From IMG/VR virus record IMGVR_UViG_3300020207_000005: 64,000 bases of DNA. One strand, written 5' to 3'. The position numbers and the translations under genes are program-made. The notes beneath the pieces were generated by a model. The model searched no databases and was not told where the DNA came from. It saw only the letters and a program-made list of their open reading frames with translations. This stretch comes from an uncultured virus (IMG/VR IMGVR_UViG_3300020207_000005) (lineage: Duplodnaviria > Heunggongvirae > Uroviricota > Caudoviricetes). Every line of letters starts with the position of its first letter. Positions within the stretch are counted from its first letter, which is position 1. This document shows, in pieces, positions 1 to 8,284 of this stretch.

Positions 1-267
1 AATATATGATGGTAACCTTACAACTTCTGGTGCCTCGACACAAATTTGTCTTGTTTCAATATACTTACGAGTACCAGTATATAGTTGTTTTCCAACACTT
101 AAAGCATCATCATTTATAATACCATCATTATCAAAATCGGTATTAAATCCTTGTGCATATCTTCCTTCACCATACTCACAATATGCTGGTCCTTCCGACC
201 ATTGTGGCATTTGTGCACAACTTGCTAATAATAGTGATAAAAATACAGCGGATAAAAGTTTAGCCAC
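1..267 (-). CDS. csgG: Curli secretion channel CsgG-like lipoprotein, N-terminal part (runs off window edge)
   Basis: Not in ORF track. GTG at 267 overlaps the csgF stop and the frame is open to base 1: MAKLLSAVFLSLLLASCAQMPQW...PEVVRLPSYI. It has a lipobox (LASC). Identity is inferred mainly from the position directly downstream of csgF. Confidence 0.65.
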   Translation of the reverse strand, partial: MAKLLSAVFLSLLLASCAQMPQWSEGPAYCEYGEGRYAQGFNTDFDNDGIINDDALSVGKQLYTGTRKYIETRQICVEAPEVVRLPSYI

Positions 268-775
268 CGTCACCATCCCCACCAGTATCTCCATCACTTC
301 CAAAGTTACCTGAACCAATTGGTATTTCAATAACAGTTGTAGTACCATCTTCATCTACAATTGTCATTTTAATAAATTCTGTTCCGTCAGCGTTTGTAAT
401 AACTTCATATGTAACTGTTGACCCTTCTAAAACAAAGGACCCAAATCTTACAGGGTCGTCGTTAGAAAACATATTGTCTACTAATTGTTTTGCTAACTGA
501 GCGTAAATCCTACTCTCTAAATTTCGTATAAATTTTGATAATGTTGAATTATCAATTTCTCGTTGTGCTGCTCTCTCGGCTGCATCTAATGCATCTTTGA
601 TTGCTTTCTTACGTGAATGTTCTTGATTCTCAATAGTGAGATAATGAGCACCTGTTCCAACACCACTGAAACTAGGATTTTTGAATTTGTGAACAATAGG
701 CTCAGCATTTGCAATACCAATTGTTAGAACGGATAATAAAATTACATCAATTATCTTTTTTATCATGTTTTTCAC
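260..775 (-). CDS. csgF: Curli assembly protein CsgF-like
   Basis: Signal peptide followed by IVHKFKNPSFSG (cf. CsgF FQFRNPNFGG), F..NLESRIYAQL and a C-terminal TTTVIEIP, all typical of the CsgF family. Confidence 0.8.
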   Translation of the reverse strand: MKNMIKKIIDVILLSVLTIGIANAEPIVHKFKNPSFSGVGTGAHYLTIENQEHSRKKAIKDALDAAERAAQREIDNSTLSKFIRNLESRIYAQLAKQLVDNMFSNDDPVRFGSFVLEGSTVTYEVITNADGTEFIKMTIVDEDGTTTVIEIPIGSGNFGSDGDTGGDGDGG

Positions 776-1031
776 CTGCCTCTCTCAGTTTCTCATTTTC
801 TTTATATTTTAAAACTACGTCTACCTTCTCTTGCAGTCTAATTAAATCCTGGTCTAGCATTCTCATTCTATCAATCACTTTGATTAATTGAAAATGCATT
901 TTATCGATTGTTGGTAAAATATTCTCTTGTATAAAGTTATAAACAAAGTACACGAAATATCCTAACCCAATCACCATAATTGTAGGAAACCCGTACTCAC
1001 TAACGAGTGTTATAATATCAAATTCTTCCAT
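747..1031 (-). CDS. Small single-TM membrane protein with coiled-coil tail (holin/YvrJ-like)
   Basis: LVSEYGFPTIMVIGLGYFVYFVY hydrophobic helix followed by a heptad-rich region; similar to 1233..1529. Confidence 0.65.
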   Translation of the reverse strand: MEEFDIITLVSEYGFPTIMVIGLGYFVYFVYNFIQENILPTIDKMHFQLIKVIDRMRMLDQDLIRLQEKVDVVLKYKENEKLREAGEKHDKKDN

Positions 1032-1233
1032 CGAATAAATCCAGTTGTTTTGGATTATATATTCTGTCTGCTTTTCTTCTAAGTGTTACAGCACCATTTT
1101 CAGTTTGAGAAGCGATGAATTCATCACCAGGTTTCCACTCAAACTTTTCTAAGGTTAACTCTCCGTCACCTTCGTCAAAAATCAGTAAATCCCCTCCAGC
1201 ACTTAAACTGAAGTGATAACCACAAAATAGCAT
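1018..1233 (-). CDS. Hypothetical protein, possibly AbrB/MazE-like fold
   Basis: Overlaps both neighbours in operon fashion. LEKFEWKPGDEF...GAVTLRR resembles the AbrB-type LGWxxGDxL pattern. Confidence 0.5.
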   Translation of the reverse strand: MLFCGYHFSLSAGGDLLIFDEGDGELTLEKFEWKPGDEFIASQTENGAVTLRRKADRIYNPKQLDLFDGRI

Positions 1234-1529
1234 TAGTCTCTCCTTACGTCGAGTTTTCCGTCTTCAATAAAATTTTCTGCCCGAGCTATACGCTCGATGT
1301 CGGGATTTAATCCAAGTGCACTAGACACGAGCAAATCTATTTTAACTACCTCATTAGACATAGTTCTCGCTCTATTCTCTAGGCTTTCACAGAACATATT
1401 TAAAGTATTAATGCTATCAATGATTCCTTCAAAAATTTGTTTAATAATAATGAAGATGAAGAATCCCATAATTAATGCACCAGCAATAGGTAAACCTAGC
1501 TCGGATATTAATTGTAGTACTGATTCCAT
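1233..1529 (-). CDS. Small single-TM membrane protein with coiled-coil tail (holin/YvrJ-like)
   Basis: LISELGLPIAGALIMGFFIFIII TM helix; first gene after the late promoter at 1575-1582. Confidence 0.65.
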   Translation of the reverse strand: MESVLQLISELGLPIAGALIMGFFIFIIIKQIFEGIIDSINTLNMFCESLENRARTMSNEVVKIDLLVSSALGLNPDIERIARAENFIEDGKLDVRRD

Positions 1530-1574
1530 ATAATCCCTGTTATTTGTATTAGCCCTACTGGGTTATACATGTTC

Positions 1575-1582
1575 TATTTATA
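1575..1582 (-). promoter_or_regulatory. T4-type late promoter TATAAATA for the csgF/csgG operon
   Basis: Exact TATAAATA on the minus strand, 46 nt upstream of the 1529 start. Confidence 0.7.
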
Positions 1583-1710
1583 ATAACTAAAGAACCATAG
1601 TGATAATATAATAGCATCATACGAAGCCCTCAGACCATCAAGATAGAACATAATTCTCAAGCCATATAGAATACCTTCCATTTTTTAAAAGGCTTCTATG
1701 AAGGAATTGA

Positions 1711-1769
1711 AAAAAAGTTGCACTTTTTTCACAAAAACAGTTGACAAATTCACTTTGATTTGGTATAAT
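1711..1769 (+). promoter_or_regulatory. Sigma70-type early promoter with upstream palindrome
   Basis: TTGACA (1741-1746), 17-bp spacer, TATAAT (1764-1769); palindrome AAAAAAGTTGCACTTTTTT at 1711-1729. Confidence 0.9.
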
Positions 1770-1799
1770 ATACATATAAATTAAGGAAAAGGAGTAAAA

Positions 1800-2099
1800 A
1801 TGGAAATAAGAATATTAGGAAACCAACCGGAACCATCTTTGACTATGGACGGTTATGAAATCACTGACTTTGAGGTCAGAACTAGAGATGAGAATCTTTT
1901 TGAAAAAGGAAAGAAAATCATCAACGATTATATCAATCAAAACCCAACTTGGGAACAATGTCAATTATTCATTGATGACCCAATGACAGTGGGTATCTAT
2001 CCGCAAGATTCTGAAGGTGCGGCTTTTAACGAAATTGTTTTAAAATTAGAAAAACTTGGCTTTTATGGTAAAGCTGCTGGTTATAGAGAGGTTGCTTAA
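1800..2099 (+). CDS. Hypothetical early protein
   Basis: Strong RBS (AAGGAG), directly after the early promoter. Confidence 0.75.
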   Translation: MEIRILGNQPEPSLTMDGYEITDFEVRTRDENLFEKGKKIINDYINQNPTWEQCQLFIDDPMTVGIYPQDSEGAAFNEIVLKLEKLGFYGKAAGYREVA

Positions 2100-2416
2100 T
2101 GAAATTATTTGAAAAATGGACCAAACTTGGTGAAGAAACATTTGGTGATACTTTCGAACAGTGTCAGTTTTTACTGAATGGTAAGAGATATGTTGGAATG
2201 ATTAAAGAGTTTGGCGAAAATCATATCGACGTAAAGCCTATGTCTATTGATTATGAATCATGTATCTTTATGGAAAATGTCAACATGGTCAAACTGACAA
2301 AAGATATGTTTGACAAAATCAAGTTAGAGATTTTTGATGATAACAGAGGTTGTGATAATTCAGCAATTGGAGTTGCTGGTTGTTATGAACCTTGGAAAAA
2401 CTTTGTTTGGGAATAA
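2099..2416 (+). CDS. Hypothetical early protein
   Basis: TAATG stop/start overlap with the upstream gene. Confidence 0.75.
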   Translation: MKLFEKWTKLGEETFGDTFEQCQFLLNGKRYVGMIKEFGENHIDVKPMSIDYESCIFMENVNMVKLTKDMFDKIKLEIFDDNRGCDNSAIGVAGCYEPWKNFVWE

Positions 2417-2445
2417 CCTTATAACAAAAAAGTTTAAAAAAATAG

Positions 2446-2474
2446 TTGACAATTACAATTACCTGTGGTATAAT
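2446..2474 (+). promoter_or_regulatory. Sigma70-type early promoter
   Basis: TTGACA 2446-2451, 17-bp spacer, TGTGG-TATAAT 2469-2474 (extended -10). Confidence 0.9.
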
Positions 2475-2503
2475 GGTCAACGTAAATGGGAAAAGGAAAT
2501 ATT

Positions 2504-2998
2504 ATGAAAATCGTTATTCAAACACAATACATGGAAAACTACGCTTGGGATGCTGAGGGCAACCTTGGTACAGGTGATGATGCCTACTGGAAGTACAAGG
2601 GTGGTACTGGGTATGTGGTTGATTGTAACCTAGAACAGGCGCAATCAAAAGATTTCTGGCAAATGCTGGAAGACCACGTGTGTTATTCTAACGATGCTTC
2701 GAAGGAGTATATCCTTTCTATGGAGTTGTTCGATGAGTGTGACTTCAAAATGGAAGACCACTTCGAGGGTTGGGAAACTCCCATCATGATAACTCCAGCT
2801 GAGTATGGTCTTATTGCCACTAAGAAAACTCCAAACGAAGAGTTTGGTTATATGAGGTCTGAGATTAAGTCTAAATTTGAAACTTGGACTATGCTACCAA
2901 ACAACGAGAGGAAGTTCTATTCTTCTTCTTTCACTATGAAAGATGGACTTATTCTATCTTCTGACGAATTGAAACAATATTTTTGTGAAGCTGCATAA
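2504..2998 (+). CDS. Hypothetical early protein
   Basis: ORF 2486..2998; the likely start is MKIVIQTQYMENY at 2504, after an AAGGA RBS. Confidence 0.75.
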   Translation: MKIVIQTQYMENYAWDAEGNLGTGDDAYWKYKGGTGYVVDCNLEQAQSKDFWQMLEDHVCYSNDASKEYILSMELFDECDFKMEDHFEGWETPIMITPAEYGLIATKKTPNEEFGYMRSEIKSKFETWTMLPNNERKFYSSSFTMKDGLILSSDELKQYFCEAA

Positions 2999-3009
2999 GG
3001 AGAAATCAA

Positions 3010-3228
3010 ATGCACCGCGTTTTAGCACCAGTTGTAGATGCCGATGAAATTGTATCGAAAAAATCTATCGAAGAAGCAATTGCTTGGCGACAAAATAAAA
3101 TTGAAACTCTAAATGAGTTTTTACCGTATGCTGATGGACAAGCATACTACCAAGATAAAGAAAAGATTCGTAAGCTCTCTATTGAACTTAACGAATTGCA
3201 TGAACACTTAGCCAATATTGAAGAATGA
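3010..3228 (+). CDS. Hypothetical early protein
   Basis: RBS AAGGAG; operon context. Confidence 0.7.
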   Translation: MHRVLAPVVDADEIVSKKSIEEAIAWRQNKIETLNEFLPYADGQAYYQDKEKIRKLSIELNELHEHLANIEE

Positions 3229-3791
3229 ATATATTTGTACTAGATGAGAATCCTATAACAGCAGCTCAAATGTGTTGTGACAGACACGTTCCTAAAATGA
3301 TTATTGAGTCTGCTCAAATGTTGTCAACGGTTCACCGACTCCTTGATGGTACACCTGAAAGACGACCTTCTAAGTCTGGTAAAACAATACAACAATATTA
3401 TTCATTCGGTGATGAGCGTGATGACATGTACTATTTGGCTGTACATAAATTTCACCCATGCACAACTTGGACAAAAGAAAGTAAGACAAACTATGAATGG
3501 CACTACGAACATTTTCGTGGGTTGGCCAACGAATTTGAATATCGACGTGGGAAAGCTCACGCAACCTGGTTAAAACTTGGTGTACTATTATCTAAACCAC
3601 CAAAGAATATACCAGACATAGGACTAACAGAATTCGCTCAGGCGATGAATCATTTTCCTGAATGTAAAGTTGAGGGAAATGCTGTGGAAGCTTATAGGAA
3701 TTACTATCATGCATCCAAACCTTTTGCTAAATGGGAATGGCGTAGACCAGCTCCTGATTGGTGGCAAGGTTATCAAGGTGCGAGTGCGTAA
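3225..3791 (+). CDS. denV: Pyrimidine-dimer DNA glycosylase (DenV/endonuclease V-related family)
   Basis: MNIFVLD...A...CDRHVPKMIIESAQMLST, HPCTTW, EFEYRRGKAH and AYRNYY..K...W motifs of the Pyr_excise-like family. Confidence 0.8.
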   Translation: MNIFVLDENPITAAQMCCDRHVPKMIIESAQMLSTVHRLLDGTPERRPSKSGKTIQQYYSFGDERDDMYYLAVHKFHPCTTWTKESKTNYEWHYEHFRGLANEFEYRRGKAHATWLKLGVLLSKPPKNIPDIGLTEFAQAMNHFPECKVEGNAVEAYRNYYHASKPFAKWEWRRPAPDWWQGYQGASA

Positions 3792-3830
3792 CTTTTATAA
3801 TTATACTATAACTAAATCAAGGAGAAACCT

Positions 3831-4070
3831 ATGCTCGATAATTTGGTCGAAGAATTATTGTCCGAAGTAAACGAAGGCAAAATAAGTAAGGATTTATTCT
3901 TACGTAAAGTTGTTGAAACTTTGTTTGTAGAGAATAGAGATGCGCTTTATGAAATGGCAATTCAAGAAGGATTCATTGCTGTTAATGAAGATAAAGAAGA
4001 TAAAGAATTCGAAAAACTCGATGCTACTCAACGCATTATCGAAAAAGTTTTGCAACGACACGGAGATTAA
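3831..4070 (+). CDS. Hypothetical protein
   Basis: RBS AAGGAG; acidic 79-aa ORF. Confidence 0.7.
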   Translation: MLDNLVEELLSEVNEGKISKDLFLRKVVETLFVENRDALYEMAIQEGFIAVNEDKEDKEFEKLDATQRIIEKVLQRHGD

Positions 4071-4073
4071 AGT

Positions 4074-4256
4074 ATGTCAATGGAACAATTCTGGTTTACA
4101 GCGATTGTATTTACTGTTATTGGATATATTTGGGGTTTACAAGCAAACCGAAAGCGTATGGTCACATTAGTGATTGATTCGCTTATTGCTGATGGTTATC
4201 TAAAAACTAAAGGGTTTGGTGACGACCAGGAAATCGTAAAATATAACGAGCTTTAG
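4074..4256 (+). CDS. Small membrane protein
   Basis: N-terminal TM helix FWFTAIVFTVIGYIWGL; tight operon spacing. Confidence 0.65.
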   Translation: MSMEQFWFTAIVFTVIGYIWGLQANRKRMVTLVIDSLIADGYLKTKGFGDDQEIVKYNEL

Positions 4257-4259
4257 GTT

Positions 4260-5003
4260 ATGATTAGAAAAAAGGCGCTCAATCAAGTTATGAATATGGG
4301 CGGACTGGTATCTGAGATGATATCAGTTTTTTATACTGAATTCTTTCAAGAAAAAGAATATGAATGGTGGTATAAAGTACAACCTGGTGATGTAGTAGTT
4401 GACCTTGGTGCTTGTGTTGGTATGTTCTCAGCACTAGCATGTGATGGTGGTGCATCTAAAGTTTACATGGTTGAAGGTAACAGACACCTACTCAAATGCG
4501 CTATTGATAATGTATCTGAGTTTATGATGAACGAACCAGACCCTATTGTATTTCCTATTAATGCAATTATTGGTTCTGCTGATGGTGTATACAAAACTAT
4601 TCATGATGAAACAACTAATGAAGATATCGATAAGATTTCTTTTAAACAACTCGTTGAAAGGTATGATATAGATTATATTGACTACCTTAAAGCAGATATT
4701 GAAGGTGCTGAATACGATGTATTTACAGAAGAGAACCTTGATTATATGCTCAACAATGTTAAGCACATGGTGGTTGAAGTTCATACTCAAGCAACACCTG
4801 GTGGTTTAAAGGACTTCTTTCATTTTAGAGATAACTTTTTGAATCACTTCGTTGATTCACCTCGTCACGAGGTACGTACACGAAGTCAGTTTGGAGAGGT
4901 TGATGGATTGTTCATGTGGCAAGACCATCTACTCAAGAATGCTAGACCAAGTCATTCTTATTGGTTGTTATACATCACGAGGAAAGATAATGAAGAAGAA
5001 TAA
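4260..5003 (+). CDS. FkbM-family SAM-dependent methyltransferase
   Basis: VVVDLGACVGMFS SAM motif, IDYLKADIEGAEY and VVEVH motifs. Confidence 0.85.
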   Translation: MIRKKALNQVMNMGGLVSEMISVFYTEFFQEKEYEWWYKVQPGDVVVDLGACVGMFSALACDGGASKVYMVEGNRHLLKCAIDNVSEFMMNEPDPIVFPINAIIGSADGVYKTIHDETTNEDIDKISFKQLVERYDIDYIDYLKADIEGAEYDVFTEENLDYMLNNVKHMVVEVHTQATPGGLKDFFHFRDNFLNHFVDSPRHEVRTRSQFGEVDGLFMWQDHLLKNARPSHSYWLLYITRKDNEEE

Positions 5004-5154
5004 GAAAGAAAATGCATTTAAAGTAATCGTTAAAGATGCTGATGACGTACTCAAAGCGGAATACGTATTCACATTCATGAAAGAAGCAATTATGTTTGAA
5101 AGTGGAGTTCGTAAAAATGGTTATAGAACTGCAATGGAACGTATAAGTATATAA
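4990..5154 (+). CDS. Small hypothetical protein
   Basis: Internal ATG (MKKNKKENAFK...) of track ORF 4852..5154; it fills the gap between neighbours with overlapping ends. Confidence 0.55.
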   Translation: MKKNKKENAFKVIVKDADDVLKAEYVFTFMKEAIMFESGVRKNGYRTAMERISI

Positions 5155-5462
5155 TGGAATCTTTGATTATAGTAGGTGAAGCGCCTGGTAAAACAACACC
5201 AGAAAAATCACCAACAAAGAACAGAGTTATCAAGTGGGTAGGTAGGCAATTTGATTGGACTAACCGCTCATACGATGACATTAGCTTAGTAAAACGATAT
5301 GATAAAGTTATTGCTTTAGGAAATATCGCTTCTACTTGGTTGGATAAGAATGAGGTGTCTCATTTAAAGATACCGCATCCAAGTCCAAGAAACAGGATGT
5401 GGAATAATCCACAAACTGAAATAGACACTGTTAGGAGAATTAACGAATACCTAACAGTTTAA
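5154..5462 (+). CDS. Minimal uracil-DNA-glycosylase-superfamily protein
   Basis: Motif A IIVGEAPG, VIALGNIA and motif B IPHPSPRN. Confidence 0.7.
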   Translation: MESLIIVGEAPGKTTPEKSPTKNRVIKWVGRQFDWTNRSYDDISLVKRYDKVIALGNIASTWLDKNEVSHLKIPHPSPRNRMWNNPQTEIDTVRRINEYLTV

Positions 5463-5499
5463 TAAAGACATAAACACACATACACACAAGGAGGAAATT

Positions 5500-5715
5500 A
5501 TGTCAAACGGAAAATCTGGGTACGAGATACGTGCCGACCTACTCAGTATGGCTCAATCCATACTATACGATAACTTACAAAGGAAGATTGACGCTACGTA
5601 TAATCATAACGACAATCACCCTGATGATAAGAAATCATTACCTACAACCTCAGTTTCAGCACAGGATATCATTTCTGTAGCTTCTGAACTGAATGAGTTC
5701 GTAAACTCAAAATAA
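5500..5715 (+). CDS. Hypothetical small protein
   Basis: Strong RBS AAGGAGG; sequence KSGYEIRADLLSMAQ...AQDIISVASELNEFV. Confidence 0.75.
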   Translation: MSNGKSGYEIRADLLSMAQSILYDNLQRKIDATYNHNDNHPDDKKSLPTTSVSAQDIISVASELNEFVNSK

Positions 5716-5723
5716 GCTCTTGA

Positions 5724-5782
5724 AAAAAAGTGCAACTTTTTTGCAAAAAACAGTTGACAATTTCAAAAAGCTGTGGTATAAT
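5724..5782 (+). promoter_or_regulatory. Sigma70-type promoter with upstream palindrome, driving the non-coding RNA
   Basis: TTGACA 5754-5759, 17-bp spacer, TGTGG-TATAAT 5777-5782; palindrome AAAAAAGTGCAACTTTTTT at 5724-5742. Confidence 0.9.
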
Positions 5783-5788
5783 ATCTAA

Positions 5789-6559
5789 CATAATGACGGA
5801 ATACTCCCCGCCGGAAAGGGAAAGTGTCTGAAATAGTGGTCACATTCGGCGAAGAGAATTAGATTGATGGACGTTCTTACCAAACGTGAAGGTCTTAAGT
5901 GTAGGAAGTAAAGTCGCCCGACTGGCAGCTGAAACTAACCGATTCCAAAGATTGCAAGCTAGGATAGGTTAGAGTAATGAGAAGGCCAGTACTGGAAAGT
6001 ACGTAATTATACGGGTGACAACAAAATCATTAGAGCAGGTGGGAAAGCGTCTCCATGTATGAAGAAACGCTCGATACTGTAGAGACCAAAGAGGTGCGGA
6101 AACACAAGATGAAGTACTAGACCCTCGGAAGGTCCGCAATGGAAAAGGAAGAACCTCAAATTCCCCGCAAGGAAACCGAGGGACACAGGACGGCGGTCCA
6201 GGCTTTATTCCCTTTAGGCAGAGATGGTACTTAGGTACCAACCGAGACTGGGATTAACGAGTACCATGTTAGTCTGAGAGACGTACCTGCGATTTTATAC
6301 CAGTTTCAATAATAGGGGCTTCGAGCTCGGGGTAGGGACAGGATTTACGATTAACAATTCTACACTATTTAACGAATTACGTTAACACAAATCCATCCCC
6401 CCAAATTTTGATTTTAAGGTAGTTTGAAATCCCCGTTTAGTCGACGGGCCCGGTAGTCCGGCAGTAAGACCAAATGACGATTGTGACACTGAAATTCAAT
6501 ACCTAGGCAATCCTTGACATACCTTTGATAGGCGTATATGGAAGGATTGCCGTTTTTTT
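5789..6559 (+). ncRNA. Large highly structured non-coding RNA (~770 nt), family unassigned
   Basis: No plus-strand ORF of 60 aa or more; GC-richer than the flanks; many nested helices and a long-range pseudoknot; bounded by a consensus promoter and an intrinsic terminator. Confidence 0.75.
6506..6559 (+). terminator. Intrinsic terminator of the ncRNA
   Basis: GGCAATCCTT (6506-6515) pairs with AAGGATTGCC (6542-6551), followed by T7. Confidence 0.7.
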
Positions 6560-6563
6560 ATCC

Positions 6564-6638
6564 GGCCCGTTCGTCTAGTGGTTAGGACACATGGTTTTCA
6601 TCCATGCAACAGGAGTTCGATTCTCCTACGGGCTACCA
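6564..6638 (+). tRNA. tRNA-Glu (anticodon TTC)
   Basis: Cloverleaf: acceptor GGCCCGT/ACGGGCT, anticodon arm CATGG-TTTTCAT-CCATG, T arm AGGAG-TTCGATT-CTCCT, encoded CCA. Confidence 0.95.
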
Positions 6639-6645
6639 ATTTATT

Positions 6646-6879
6646 ATGAAATTATCTACAAGAACAAAACGAATTCATAAAGAAACCGGCACTCAAGTTG
6701 CAACCGGTCTTCTTATCAACTATCCATTGAACTTGTCTTTATTGTATATCTTTATTGATAAGTTTGGAATCACAGACCCACTCACGCTGGGAACGCTAGT
6801 GACTTGTGTAATGACAGTCGTAGCTTATACACGAATCTTCCTGATTCGTTCGTATTTCGATAAGCATAAAACAAAGTAA
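6646..6879 (+). CDS. Small two-TM membrane protein
   Basis: Likely start MKLSTRTKR at 6646, because the track start at 6604 lies inside the tRNA; two hydrophobic segments. Confidence 0.6.
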   Translation: MKLSTRTKRIHKETGTQVATGLLINYPLNLSLLYIFIDKFGITDPLTLGTLVTCVMTVVAYTRIFLIRSYFDKHKTK

Positions 6880-6907
6880 AAAAAAGGGTCCCTGAAAGAG
6901 ACCCTTT
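6878..6907 (-). terminator. Intrinsic terminator downstream of gp23 (possibly bidirectional)
   Basis: AAAGGGTC/GACCCTTT stem with an A-run on the left (a U-tail on the minus strand), between convergent genes. Confidence 0.75.
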
Positions 6908-6955
6908 AAAATTCGGTAGCTGAATGCTACTCTTATTTTTATGGAGTACTTAAAA

Positions 6956-8284
6956 TTAGAATAAGTTTGTGACTCTAATTTTTCTGTAGTACTTGTTGAC
7001 GTCTTGAGTAAGAGCACCCAAACCTTGGTTAGAAACGTCACCTTCAGCGAATGGGTTTGCAACCATTCCGTAACGAGTCTTGAATCCAATTTTTGGTTGG
7101 AAGCTGTTCTCACCAACCGCACGAACCATTTGTAAAGGAACGTATGGGCAGTAGAATAAACCTGCATCAAATGCAGATGAACCCTTATAACCAACTACTA
7201 AGTAGTTGCCGCCTGCGAATGGGTCAACGTATACTCTGAATCTTCCGTTAAGAACACCAGCAAAAGTATTACCTGTGTCATCAACTTCTAAAGAGTTAGA
7301 GTTTAAGGCAGGAGCGTAATCCAATACACCAGCCATTTGCAATGCAGAAGCTACGTCTGAAGAACAAATAACGATGTTACCTTTCCCTCTACGAGTTCCT
7401 TTTGCGATAGCGTTAGCTTCTTGTTCGATTTGGAACATTAAGCCTTTGAACTTCTCAACTGACCATCTTCCGTTTGCATCAACGTCTAAGTCGAATACTC
7501 CAGAAGCAGCAGTATTGTCACCACCTACTTCAGCTGTTTTGTAGATTGTTCTAACAACTTCACGGTTGATTTCTGTTAAGATTTCAGATTGAAGAATGTT
7601 AGCCAATTCTGTTTCAGCGTCTAGGCCGTGGACTGCTCTTAAGTCTTGAGCAAGTTCAGTTGTGTATTCAGCTTTTAAAGCACGTGTCTTAGCAGCAACA
7701 GTAACTTTCTCAATAGAGAATGCCATTTCTGCGAAGTTTGTACCTTGACCGTCGCCTAAAGCTTCAGCCGCTGCTGTGTCCATACCTGTACCAGTTGTAA
7801 TAAGCGTTGTATTAGCGTTTGGCAAAGTATTTGCGTGTGTACCAGTACCACCAAAGTCGGTATCGGCTTCAGCATATAAAGCTTCCGCACCACCTTGAGA
7901 ACCGTAACGTGCTCTCATCGCGAAGATTAAACCTGTTGGGCCAGTCATTGGCTGAACACCACAGATATCGTAAGCGATTAGGTTAGGAATAGCTCTACGT
8001 ACTAATGAAATCAAGATAGGGTCATAACCAGCTGTTGGACCAGCTGCTGCATTTCCTGGAGATACACTTGCAGAGAAACCACCTGTACCAGCATCGTTGG
8101 TAGGTGCTTCTGAAAGAAGGCTTGTCATGTTTGCAGACAAGTCACCTGTTTCAGAAAGTGCTCTTTCTGTGTTCTCTAGGATAGTAGCTGTTACTGCTTT
8201 CCTATGTTGATCGCTAATTGGTGAAAAAGAGTCGTGCTCTAAAATTGGCTCCCACTTTTCCACGAGTTGTTGATAGTTTGACAT
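6956..8284 (-). CDS. gp23: Major capsid protein (T4 gp23)
   Basis: LVRRAIPNLIAYDICGVQPMTGPTGLIFAMR, KAEYTTELAQDL and FQPKIGFKTRYG motifs. Confidence 0.98.
   Translation of the reverse strand: MSNYQQLVEKWEPILEHDSFSPISDQHRKAVTATILENTERALSETGDLSANMTSLLSEAPTNDAGTGGFSASVSPGNAAAGPTAGYDPILISLVRRAIPNLIAYDICGVQPMTGPTGLIFAMRARYGSQGGAEALYAEADTDFGGTGTHANTLPNANTTLITTGTGMDTAAAEALGDGQGTNFAEMAFSIEKVTVAAKTRALKAEYTTELAQDLRAVHGLDAETELANILQSEILTEINREVVRTIYKTAEVGGDNTAASGVFDLDVDANGRWSVEKFKGLMFQIEQEANAIAKGTRRGKGNIVICSSDVASALQMAGVLDYAPALNSNSLEVDDTGNTFAGVLNGRFRVYVDPFAGGNYLVVGYKGSSAFDAGLFYCPYVPLQMVRAVGENSFQPKIGFKTRYGMVANPFAEGDVSNQGLGALTQDVNKYYRKIRVTNLF

What the first reader, a model, noticed from the sequence alone, without database searches (positions are those of the whole stretch)
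5789..6559. ~770-nt ornate, pseudoknotted non-coding RNA with its own promoter and terminator, next to a tRNA
SEEN: a perfect sigma70 promoter (5754-5782) is followed by no credible ORF but by many complementary segments. Closing helices: 5839-5848/6478-6487 (one mismatch) and 5891-5897/6465-6471. One domain: 5913-5920/6012-6019 enclosing 5921-5926/5985-5990 and 5935-5940/5967-5972. A second domain: 6023-6028/6291-6296, 6035-6040/6285-6290 and 6048-6053/6278-6283, enclosing 6122-6128/6176-6182 and hairpin 6225-6240. A rod hairpin (6341-6346/6389-6394) has loop CACTATTT (6363-6370), exactly complementary to AAATAGTG (5831-5838), forming a ~530-nt-range pseudoknot. A terminator follows, then tRNA-Glu 4 nt later. 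KNOWN: large phage-associated ncRNAs such as GOLLD and ROOL are of similar size, lie near tRNA genes and have unknown function. INFERENCE: this is a member of such a class, or a new large RNA class expressed early in infection.
Basis: partly seen in the sequence, partly recalled or inferred. Interest (0 to 1): 0.85.

Follow-up and report, generated by a model that had tools for sequence, protein, structure and literature searches.

The report
New large structured phage RNA family
This gene-free stretch of an uncultured T4-like phage encodes a large, intricately folded non-coding RNA that matches no catalogued RNA family, recurs with the same fold in dozens of related phage fragments, and so adds a new class to the few large phage RNAs whose job is still unknown.

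Summary
A perfect sigma70 promoter (5754-5782), no conserved ORF, a hairpin plus T-run (6506-6559) and tRNA-Glu 4 nt later are all present.

The RNA is real and conserved. Homologs lie in at least 46 IMG/VR contigs and 9 metagenome contigs, giving 35 distinct core sequences. All 24 sequences checked carry the same consensus promoter 6-7 nt before the conserved 5' end.

Covariation is strong. On 24 lineages, 91.9% of cells are paired. 36 of 60 pairs changed on both sides, against 22.3 in shuffles (0 of 500 as high) and 9-14 when the partners are slid.

No Rfam family matches, including GOLLD, ROOL, tmRNA, RNase P and group I introns. ARAGORN finds no tmRNA.

7 of 12 helices are supported and 1 weakly. 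Two are contradicted. The outer closing helix and the 530-nt pseudoknot sit in a lineage-specific expansion; the closing helix competes with two covarying local hairpins.

The conserved unit is a two-domain core of about 420-500 nt (5789-6295). The window's 260-nt 3' part is an accessory module. Many lineages end with a plain terminator right after the core, so this is a stand-alone RNA gene, not a leader. Contigs from four metatranscriptome runs cover it. Its function is unknown.

The parts
5754..5782 (+). Consensus sigma70-type promoter (TTGACA, 17 nt, TG-n-TATAAT). The predicted start is about 5788-5790.
   Evidence: 12 of 12 hexamer positions match; 24 of 24 distinct family sequences have TTGAC(A/T)-17-TATAAT placed 6-7 nt before the conserved AUAUUGAGGGAA; one of 7 perfect sites in the window, against 0.10 expected.
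5789..6295 (+). Conserved two-domain core RNA, the unit shared by all lineages
   Evidence: Alignments A3, A5 and A6 and covariation counts. 35 distinct core sequences.
5791..6032 (+). 5' domain, closed by helix P1 (5791-5796 with 6027-6032). It holds a hairpin with the conserved CUUAYCA loop (5871-5875/5883-5887), P4 (5917-5920/6012-6015), P5 (5923-5926/5985-5988), an optional insertion hairpin (5935-5948/5958-5972) and a GGAA-loop hairpin (5989-5993/5998-6002).
   Evidence: Coordinates. P1 has changes on both sides at 3 of 7 pairs (helix 1). P5 has 3 of 4 and the GGAA hairpin 3 of 3. The insertion hairpin has 9 of 14 (helix 10).
5810..5850 (+). Expanded P2 element specific to the window and L166 lineages (GCCG 5810-5813 with CGGC 5847-5850). 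Its inner hairpin loop carries AAAUAGUG (5831-5838).
   Evidence: the segment is absent from the other lineages. L166 has GAGUC...GGCUC where the window has GUGUC...GUCAC.
6035..6290 (+). Domain B, closed by 6035-6040/6285-6290 and 6047-6055/6275-6284. It holds a hairpin with the invariant AAGAAACGCUCG loop (6056-6060/6074-6078), an optional insertion (6082-6135), long-range helices 6139-6142/6264-6267, 6148-6151/6203-6206 and 6209-6212/6250-6253, and hairpins 6154-6181, 6188-6199 and 6225-6240.
   Evidence: For example 6209-6212/6250-6253 has 4 of 4 pairs changed on both sides and 96.6% of cells paired. Helix 6139-6142/6264-6267 occurs as GUCG/CGAU, AUGG/CCAU, GUAG/CUAC and GUCU/AGAU. The window coordinates of these two and of 6148-6151/6203-6206 were read by hand.
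6296..6505 (+). Accessory 3' module found only in the long-type lineages: a small hairpin (6316-6328), a long rod hairpin (6330-6402, loop UACACUAUUUAAC at 6361-6373) and a four-way junction (6418-6503) with three hairpins whose loops are conserved.
   Evidence: helices 22-28: the junction closing helix has 4 of 9 pairs changed on both sides, hairpin 6432-6448 has 3 of 6, 6450-6461 has 2 of 4, and 6462-6491 has 4 of 4. The module is absent in short-type lineages.
6506..6559 (+). Terminator hairpin with an invariant apical part (CAUACCUUUGAU.GG.GUAUAUGG), followed by a T-run at 6553-6559
   Evidence: helices 29-30: 6 of 14 pairs changed on both sides and 99.1% of cells paired. Sequence read.
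6564..6638 (+). tRNA-Glu (UUC), 4 nt after the T-run, with no promoter of its own found by the scan
   Evidence: In other lineages hemC takes its place or follows it.
6646..6879 (+). Small membrane-like protein (weak DUF7220 match), the one neighbour that recurs downstream of the RNA
   Evidence: family F0 is present in 13 of 15 loci examined. PF23858 scores 24.9 bits, below its cut-off of 28.

Best explanation
Identity and expression. Window 5789-6559 (+) is a gene for a stand-alone, highly structured non-coding RNA of a family that is not in Rfam. The family is carried by a clade of uncultured T4-like myophages from marine, salt-marsh and freshwater samples. Host RNA polymerase would start at a consensus sigma70 promoter, so that the transcript begins at the first helix (P1). 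An intrinsic terminator would end it.

Architecture. The conserved unit is a two-domain core of about 420-500 nt (5789-6295). It consists of a 5' domain closed by P1 and a second domain closed by 6035-6055/6275-6290. Each domain has invariant unpaired loops and optional peripheral hairpins. The window's lineage adds a 260-nt 3' module: a rod hairpin, a four-way junction and an elaborate terminator hairpin.

What is shown and what is inferred. Conservation, covariation, the promoter, the lack of coding capacity, presence in RNA libraries and the absence of any Rfam match are shown. That the RNA acts in trans through its three-dimensional fold is inferred.

Likely mechanism. My best guess, at about 0.3, is that it acts like the ROOL and GOLLD RNAs of phages that also sit beside tRNA genes. 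It would be an abundant RNA scaffold or decoy, possibly self-assembling, that serves the phage's take-over of tRNA or translation. A ribozyme activity is the next guess, at about 0.1.
For: Promoter. The match is 12 of 12 and is conserved in 24 of 24 distinct sequences at a fixed distance from P1.

Family size. 40 IMG/VR contigs came from one pattern scan, and the 21 that were new were all confirmed by nhmmer. 9 of 13 metagenome hits are homologs. There are 35 distinct cores among the 95 held loci that have both promoter and core.

Covariation.
- 24 lineages, 60 pairs: 91.9% of cells paired, against 79.2% in shuffles and 34-44% when slid. 36 pairs changed on both sides, against 22.3 in shuffles (0 of 500 as high) and 9-14 when slid.
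- 8 long-type sequences, 182 pairs: 94.5% paired. 62 pairs changed on both sides, against 29.7 in shuffles and 5-11 when slid.

Strand. There are 68 G.U cells against 23 A.C cells.

Not coding. The longest ORFs differ in strand, frame and place between lineages. The window's 90-aa ORF is broken in L131, L120, L084, L123, L127 and L129. 29 of 34 (A4) and 37 of 49 (A5) distinct gap runs are not multiples of 3.

Stand-alone gene. 13 of 35 distinct cores have a T-run 21-23 nt after the core. Several of these are followed by a fresh consensus promoter.

No known family..

Presence in RNA libraries. Contigs of 4 of 4 laid metatranscriptome runs cover 5731-6225, 5311-6281, 5557-6225 and 5723-6225 (table 8).
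Against: - No function is shown, and there is no experiment on any member.
- The metatranscriptome data are contigs. They give no strand, no ends and no reliable level, and DNA can be present in RNA libraries (the tool's own caveats). Those contigs also begin 58-478 nt upstream of the predicted start.
- Folding energy of the + strand is unremarkable (z -1.76) and is weaker than that of the - strand (z -4.32).
- The structures were derived from the same alignments on which they were counted, which inflates the share of paired cells. In one search, the measure 'further pair types' did not beat the shuffles (177 of 500 as high).
- One helix (helix 18) was mis-indexed by one column and scored 47.8% paired.
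- In lineages with hemC or tRNA-Glu directly after the terminator and no visible promoter, some read-through must occur. A cis role for the 3' end is therefore not excluded there.
- The ROOL/GOLLD analogy rests on context and size only.
Confidence: 0.75

Rival explanations
1. The 770-nt unit in the window is two functional parts, not one RNA. The conserved core (5789 to about 6295) is the stable species. The 3' module (6296-6559) is a separate accessory element, either a processed-off spacer or a second RNA, that links the core to tRNA-Glu.
For: Short-type lineages lack the 3' module entirely and terminate 21-23 nt after the core. The core's closing helix ends at 6290. Weak hint only: RNA-library contigs of three runs stop at 6225 and one stops at 6281, where it runs into adapter-like letters (recognised from memory). 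Only low-figure contigs lie over 6314-6514.
Against: No promoter-like site lies on the + strand between 6290 and 6560, so both parts are made as one transcript. The module covaries as RNA (helices 22-30). This rival refines the best explanation rather than excluding it.
Confidence: 0.35
2. It is a cis-acting leader, such as a giant riboswitch or attenuator. Its terminator would gate transcription into the downstream tRNA-Glu, hemC and small-membrane-protein genes, perhaps sensing a tetrapyrrole-pathway signal.
For: tRNA-Glu or hemC follows the terminator within 4-25 nt, with no promoter of its own found in the window or in the L086-type loci. tRNA-Glu and HemC both belong to the C5 tetrapyrrole pathway (established knowledge; HemC identified).
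Against: In 13 of 35 distinct cores a plain terminator follows the core. Several of these lineages then carry a new consensus promoter and unrelated genes. The terminators are of at least three unrelated types, and I saw no conserved alternative pairing with the core, though I made no dedicated search for one. No riboswitch family matches.
Confidence: 0.08
3. It is a very divergent member of a known RNA family. The candidates are GOLLD, ROOL, the two-piece tmRNA that related marine myophages carry behind an early promoter, RNase P RNA, or a group I intron-like ribozyme.
For: Related phages (Melnitz, pelagimyophages) encode a two-piece tmRNA directly downstream of an early promoter (PMC9004378, passages read). 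The size and the setting beside a tRNA resemble GOLLD and ROOL (PMC12286853, passages read). Some short motifs recall RNase P or group I core sequences, but that is recollection only and no call tests it.
Against: cmscan against 4227 Rfam families at E up to 10 gave nothing but tRNA and sub-threshold chance hits. This held for the window region, 12 homolog loci and 8 further loci. The GOLLD and ROOL models found nothing at the RNA in 5 records that hold it. The one GOLLD hit, at 6.1 bits, lies elsewhere in its record. ARAGORN found a tmRNA or tRNA in 0 of 16 RNAs, and none of the 16 has a T-loop motif. The pairings that the remembered RNase P and group I motifs would need are taken by other helices that covary.
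Confidence: 0.05
4. It is not an RNA gene at all, but a protein-coding region (small or recoded ORFs) or a DNA-level element such as an origin or packaging site.
For: ORFs of 45-107 aa can be drawn in every member. The minus strand folds at least as well by energy.
Against: No ORF is conserved in strand, frame or position, and most gap runs are not multiples of 3. Compensatory changes keep pairing, with G.U outnumbering A.C 68 to 23 on the + strand. A promoter and a terminator bracket the unit in the + direction in all lineages checked.
Confidence: 0.02

Closest known systems
ROOL RNA (Rfam RF03087)
   Same: A large (about 500-650 nt), multi-helix phage or prophage RNA, often beside tRNA genes, very abundant where measured, with no partner protein known and no known function (PMC12286853, passages read). 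The present RNA is likewise phage-borne, 420-770 nt, beside a tRNA in some lineages, and found in RNA libraries.
   Different: The ROOL covariance model gives no match in 5 of 5 records that hold this RNA. That search also found nothing in its 14 control genomes, so it is weak on its own; cmscan of the loci was negative too. No sequence or helix correspondence was seen. Oligomer formation is untested here.
GOLLD RNA (Rfam RF02032)
   Same: A large phage or prophage RNA near tRNA islands, found in aquatic metagenomes, with modular conservation: one part universal and another variable (PMC12286853).
   Different: The GOLLD model gives no match at the RNA. In GOLLD the 3' region is the conserved part. 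Here the 5' and middle core is conserved and the 3' part is optional. This core is also only about half GOLLD's length.
Two-piece tmRNA (ssrA) of Melnitz-like and pelagimyophage relatives
   Same: A stable structured RNA gene placed directly behind an early promoter in marine T4-like phages. Their capsid proteins are about 62% identical to this phage's (PMC9004378, passages read). One family-bearing contig (L166) also has a glutamine riboswitch nearby.
   Different: There is no tRNA-like domain, no T-loop motif and no ARAGORN call in 0 of 16 RNAs. No tmRNA family of Rfam matches.
Terminated leader RNAs and riboswitches upstream of phage genes
   Same: The unit runs from promoter to terminator and lies directly upstream of genes that lack their own promoter in some lineages.
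   Different: The unit is far larger than known leaders. In many lineages it is followed by its own terminator and then a new promoter. I saw no conserved anti-terminator pairing, though I made no dedicated search.

Membership tests
GOLLD (RF02032) | Match to the family covariance model at or above its gathering score (150 bits) | tested here: not met
   0 of 5 records that hold the RNA have a match over the cut-off. The only hit (6.1 bits, E 0.69) lies elsewhere in its record; no GOLLD row at E up to 10.
GOLLD (RF02032) | Universally conserved 3' region with a variable 5' region (PMC12286853) | tested here: not met
   Here the 5' and middle core is conserved and the 3' region is optional.
ROOL (RF03087) | Match to the family covariance model at or above its gathering score (99.1 bits) | tested here: not met
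   0 of 5 records match. The same search found nothing in its controls either, so it is weak on its own; no ROOL row at E up to 10.
ROOL / GOLLD as a kind | Homo-oligomeric RNA-only assembly (nanocage) seen by cryo-EM | not testable with these tools
   It needs in vitro transcription followed by native gels or cryo-EM.
ROOL / GOLLD as a kind | Encoded in phages or prophages, often beside tRNA genes | tested here: met
   The window is a T4-like phage, with Gp23, portal, scaffold and prohead protease. tRNA-Glu follows the RNA for 8 of 35 distinct cores. None of the 5 bacterial-genome pattern hits is a homolog.
tmRNA (one-piece or two-piece) | tRNA-like domain (acceptor stem, T-arm, CCA end) and a tag reading frame | tested here: not met
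   ARAGORN finds 0 of 16 RNAs and the T-loop motif is in 0 of 16. There is no tmRNA in the 64-kb window and no Rfam tmRNA family match.
RNase P RNA / group I intron | Match to the family covariance models. For a group I intron, also flanking exons. | tested here: not met
   No such row at E up to 10. The RNA starts 6-7 nt after a promoter and ends at a terminator, so there are no exons. Catalytic activity is not testable here.
Riboswitch or attenuator leader | A terminator that competes with a conserved alternative pairing, and an obligatory downstream gene in the same transcription unit | tested here: not met
   The terminators are of at least three unrelated types. 13 of 35 distinct cores are followed by a plain terminator, and several of those lineages carry a new promoter after it. 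No riboswitch model matches the RNA.

The most novel reading that the evidence does not exclude
This is the founding member of a third class of large ornate phage RNAs, after GOLLD and ROOL. Its two-domain core of about 450 nt, with invariant loops, would be an active machine: either a self-assembling RNA-only particle or a ribozyme acting on tRNA or another RNA substrate. The phage would make it in bulk from its first minutes in the cell. The optional modules and the linked tRNA-Glu and hemC genes would be cargo or clients of that machine.
Probability: 0.25. Interest if true: 0.9.

Novelty: new variant of a known kind. Interest (0 to 1): 0.72.

Why it matters
Large, elaborately folded bacterial and phage RNAs are rare, and each class found so far (ROOL, GOLLD, OLE) has shown unexpected RNA architecture, yet their functions remain poorly understood (PMC12286853).

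This family offers a fresh and well-sampled case. It has 35 distinct cores, clear domain boundaries, natural minimal forms (about 420 nt) and extended forms (about 770 nt), and a defined promoter and end. RNA-library contigs also suggest it is made in nature.

That makes it directly usable for chemical probing, cryo-EM and activity screens. It is also a handle on why phages so often pair large RNAs with tRNA genes.

The alternation of tRNA-Glu and hemC next to it also raises a testable link to tetrapyrrole synthesis.

Tried and rejected
1. Known families. Rfam was scanned at gathering score on the window and on 19 capsid-gene loci of relatives (0 matches). It was scanned at E up to 10 on the region and on 20 homolog loci. 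The only real matches were tRNAs and, upstream in L166, a glutamine riboswitch. The rest were sub-threshold hits, mostly at terminators or promoters.

2. GenBank phages. The window region matched 19 records, all in the tRNA part only. The L086 RNA matched none. Erythrobacter phage XM05, reached through its tRNA-Glu, has a 16-tRNA array and no homolog.

3. Bacterial and archaeal genomes. The pattern scan gave 5 hits and none is a homolog.

4. Chance pattern hits that were set aside: L094, L095, L096 and L100; L115, L138 and L161.

5. Capsid-gene neighbours. Only 3 of 80 loci of capsid relatives hold the RNA, so synteny was a poor route to more members.

6. Partner of the rod-hairpin loop. Three candidates were found and none is settled. 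The window-only AAAUAGUG gives the best duplex in the window, at -8.7 kcal/mol. The invariant AGUAAUG (5973-5979) is the best in 5 of 8 other long types. AUAGGUGGA (5901-5909 in the window) came from RNAalifold and has 1 of 7 pairs changed on both sides.

7. Other pairings dropped.
- GACU/AGUC (6246-6249/6271-6274) crosses better-supported helices and never covaries.
- Pairing of the 5' GAGGGAA with the pyrimidine tract is superseded by 6209-6212/6250-6253.
- Pairing of the 5' end with the 3' UCAAUA does not fit: the window's change is compensated only by the internal copy.

8. Conserved partner protein. None was found upstream: three different upstream neighbours occur.

9. Coverage gaps in RNA-library contigs. 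Figures are low over 6314-6514 and nil over 6716-6916, and contigs stop at 6225.

10. Earlier scan notes. Nothing was on record for this genome or sequence.

11. Literature. Searches returned no title or abstract describing this RNA. Supplements were not opened.
Full report
**What is in the window**

Window 5754-5782 holds TTGACA, 17 nt, then TG-n-TATAAT, matching 12 of 12 hexamer positions. It is one of 7 perfect sites of this form in the 64-kb window, where 0.10 are expected. These look like the phage's set of host-polymerase ("early") promoters.

Downstream, no ORF longer than 33 aa lies on the + strand between 5789 and 6559. The longest ORF, 90 aa, is on the - strand.

The stretch ends in a long hairpin (6506-6551) and a T-run (6553-6559), read. 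The simple terminator scan missed it because its loop exceeds 8 nt. tRNA-Glu(UUC) follows at 6564-6638.

The surrounding genes are those of a T4-like myovirus: Gp23 capsid, scaffold, prohead protease and portal. The capsid protein is at most 65% identical to any GenBank phage. The nearest are Sinorhizobium phiN3 and phiM12, then Pelagibacter HTVC008M and Methylophilales phage Melnitz at 62.5%.

**Is it a known RNA?**

No. cmscan against all 4227 Rfam families gave only the tRNA at gathering score. At E up to 10 over 5600-6700 it gave only the tRNA plus one 14-bit chance hit. The same held for 12 homolog loci and 8 more. The one real extra match there is a glutamine riboswitch about 490 nt upstream of the RNA in L166.

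The GOLLD (RF02032) and ROOL (RF03087) models, run over five virus records that hold the RNA, found nothing at it. The ROOL run also found nothing in its controls, so it is weak on its own.

Relatives of this phage are known to carry a two-piece tmRNA behind an early promoter (PMC9004378, passages read). I therefore tested that idea. ARAGORN finds no tmRNA or tRNA in 0 of 16 family RNAs, and none has a T-loop motif.

GenBank phages hold no homolog at blastn sensitivity. None of 5 pattern hits in 185,579 species' genomes is a homolog.

**Relatives**

Capsid-gene synteny gave few members: 3 of 80 loci. Conserved blocks used as degenerate DNA patterns gave many more.
- A 21-mer in IMG/VR gave 6 loci on 6 contigs, all family members.
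- The same 21-mer in metagenomes gave 13 hits, of which 9 are homologs and 4 are chance.
- A second block gave 24 hits, of which 23 are homologs.
- A third block gave 40 contigs. 19 of these contigs had already been confirmed, and nhmmer confirmed the 21 new ones.

With six further contigs from other scans, the family is in at least 46 IMG/VR contigs. Among the 95 held loci that carry both promoter and whole core there are 35 distinct core sequences.

In 24 of 24 distinct sequences checked, TTGAC(A/T)-17-TATAAT sits 6-7 nt before the conserved AUAUUGAGGGAA. The transcript therefore begins at the first helix.

**Not coding, and on the + strand**

The longest ORFs differ in strand, frame and place between members. 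The window's 90-aa ORF is interrupted in L131, L120, L084, L123, L127 and L129. 29 of 34 (A4) and 37 of 49 (A5) distinct gap runs are not multiples of three.

In the curated structure, G.U cells outnumber A.C cells 68 to 23. That fits an RNA of the + strand, as do the promoter and the terminators. Folding energy alone does not help: z is -1.76 for the + strand and -4.32 for the - strand.

**Fold and covariation**

- Eight long-type sequences (A4), curated structure of 182 pairs: 94.5% of cells paired, against 85.4% in shuffles and 31-40% when slid. 62 pairs changed on both sides, against 29.7 in shuffles (0 of 500 as high) and 5-11 when slid. One helix (number 18) was mis-indexed by a column and scored 47.8%.
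- Sixteen sequences of the core (A5): 84.8% paired. 35 of 66 pairs changed on both sides, against 20.5 in shuffles. One measure, further pair types, did not beat the shuffles (177 of 500 as high).
- 24 lineages (A6), RNAalifold helices of at least 3 bp and at least 80% canonical: 91.9% paired, against 79.2% in shuffles. 36 of 60 pairs changed on both sides, against 22.3 in shuffles (0 of 500 as high) and 9-14 when slid.

These structures were derived from the alignments on which they were counted, which favours them. The slid controls and the many independent pair types argue that the signal is real.

The model has two domains.
- The 5' domain is closed by P1 (5791-5796 with 6027-6032), which has three separate compensatory events. 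It contains a hairpin with the conserved CUUAYCA loop, P4, P5, a GGAA-loop hairpin whose stem takes at least eight different complementary forms, and an optional insertion hairpin.
- Domain B is closed by 6035-6040/6285-6290 and 6047-6055/6275-6284. It contains a hairpin with the invariant loop AAGAAACGCUCG. Three nested long-range helices (6139-6142/6264-6267, 6148-6151/6203-6206, 6209-6212/6250-6253) each occur in four to six complementary versions. Several hairpins complete the domain.

Of its 12 helices, 7 are supported and one is weak.

Two are contradicted. 5891-5897 does not pair with 6465-6471 in any other lineage. 6122-6128/6176-6182 is replaced by 6091-6094/6123-6126 and 6154-6157/6178-6181, both of which covary.

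The outer closing helix (5839-5848/6478-6487) and the 8-bp pseudoknot (5831-5838/6363-6370) have their 5' strands in an expansion found only in the window's lineage and in L166. L166 has AAAGAGUG there and no 3' domain at all. In both lineages the flanks form a local hairpin, GUGUC/GUCAC against GAGUC/GGCUC.

The rod loop is conserved and probably does pair with something. AAAUAGUG is its best partner in the window (-8.7 kcal/mol). In other long types the best partner is the invariant AGUAAUG, or possibly AUAGGUGGA. No covariation decides between them.

**One gene, variable ends**

Many lineages end with a plain GC hairpin and T-run 21-23 nt after the core (13 of 35 distinct cores), and several then carry a new consensus promoter. 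Others end in a long rod-like terminator hairpin. The window's group adds a module of about 260 nt: a rod, a four-way junction with three conserved-loop hairpins, and a terminator hairpin with an invariant apex. That module itself covaries (helices 22-30).

What follows also varies. It can be tRNA-Glu, hemC (porphobilinogen deaminase), both (L146), or unrelated genes. Only a small DUF7220-like membrane protein recurs downstream, in 13 of 15 loci. Upstream neighbours differ, so no partner protein is evident.

This pattern fits a stand-alone RNA gene and argues against a leader or riboswitch.

**Expression**

The stretch is held by 20 public runs (18 study codes). They come from salt-marsh and freshwater metagenomes, and 6 are salt-marsh metatranscriptomes.

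In all 4 metatranscriptome runs laid, contigs cover the core: 5731-6225, 5311-6281, 5557-6225 and 5723-6225. Their per-contig depth figures are 32, 168, 194 and 56. Depth over 3500-5300 is 0-4 per bin, and this phage's capsid-gene contigs (7558-7961) have figures of 7-89.

The four runs have four study codes, but all are from one year and habitat and may be one campaign. The tool warns that contig figures cannot rank genes, show neither strand nor ends, and may include DNA. I take this only as presence in RNA libraries, consistent with abundant transcription. The lower figures over 6314-6514 and the contig stops at 6225 are not evidence.

**What it most likely does**

Shown: a conserved, covarying, promoter-driven, non-coding, phage-borne RNA of a new family.

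Inferred: it acts in trans through its fold. Invariant unpaired loops sit in a fixed scaffold, and peripheral hairpins are gained and lost. That pattern is typical of ribozymes and of the ornate RNAs ROOL and GOLLD. Those are also phage-encoded, often beside tRNA islands, can be very abundant and assemble into RNA-only cages (PMC12286853, passages read).

My rough odds are:
- about 0.3 for a scaffold or decoy role in tRNA or translation take-over, possibly as an oligomer;
- about 0.1 for catalysis;
- 0.08 for a cis leader;
- 0.05 for a diverged known family.

**Novelty**

No title or abstract returned by the three literature searches describes this RNA. I read passages of three papers only and opened no supplements. 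Earlier notes of this scan describe other orphan phage RNAs next to tRNAs, in one case with GOLLD in sister phages, but none shares sequence with this one.

I rate it a new class within a known kind of object: large structured phage RNAs of unknown function.

Noticed in passing
window 6564-6638; L011 2711-3538 (-); L146: The slot right after the RNA holds tRNA-Glu(UUC), hemC (porphobilinogen deaminase; Pfam E 4e-58), or both in L146. Glu-tRNA and HemC both feed the C5 tetrapyrrole pathway, so the phages may boost haem, chlorophyll or B12 synthesis.
   Followed up: partly
window 1741, 2446, 5754, 26972, 27849, 42416, 43841: There are seven perfect TTGACA-17-TATAAT promoters, against 0.10 expected, several with an extended -10 TG. 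They look like the phage's early promoter set. Copies with the same upstream A/T-rich hairpin occur in the nearest virus record (L002, L003).
   Followed up: partly
L166 255-307: A glutamine riboswitch (RF01739, 60.9 bits against a cut-off of 35) lies about 490 nt upstream of the RNA in one family-bearing contig. This links the clade to the Melnitz and pelagimyophage group, where such riboswitches were reported.
   Followed up: no
window 6646-6879: A small two-helix membrane-like protein (weak DUF7220 match, 24.9 bits, below the cut-off of 28) is the only neighbour kept downstream of the RNA, in 13 of 15 loci.
   Followed up: partly
window 6418-6503: The four-way junction of the 3' module has a cloverleaf-like outline: a 9-bp closing helix and three adjacent hairpins with conserved loops UUAGUC, UAGN and AUGACGA. 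ARAGORN does not call it a tRNA or tmRNA.
   Followed up: partly
window 6387-6466: RNA-library contigs of three runs join 6387 to 6466, skipping 78 nt, at depth of about 3. This is probably a strain variant lacking part of the rod end and junction.
   Followed up: no
window 4260-5003 and 5154-5462: The upstream early-region genes include an FkbM-type methyltransferase (E 1e-8) and a short uracil-DNA-glycosylase-superfamily protein of 102 aa (25.6 bits).
   Followed up: no
L163 (Erythrobacter phage XM05, record 1-3568): The first 3.5 kb of this GenBank phage carry 16 tRNA genes by ARAGORN, but the record has no annotated feature there.
   Followed up: no
G001 (nearest virus record), ends: The nearest held virus record starts at window position of about 6521, inside the RNA's terminator hairpin. 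The RNA gene is therefore cut by the contig end in that record.
   Followed up: no
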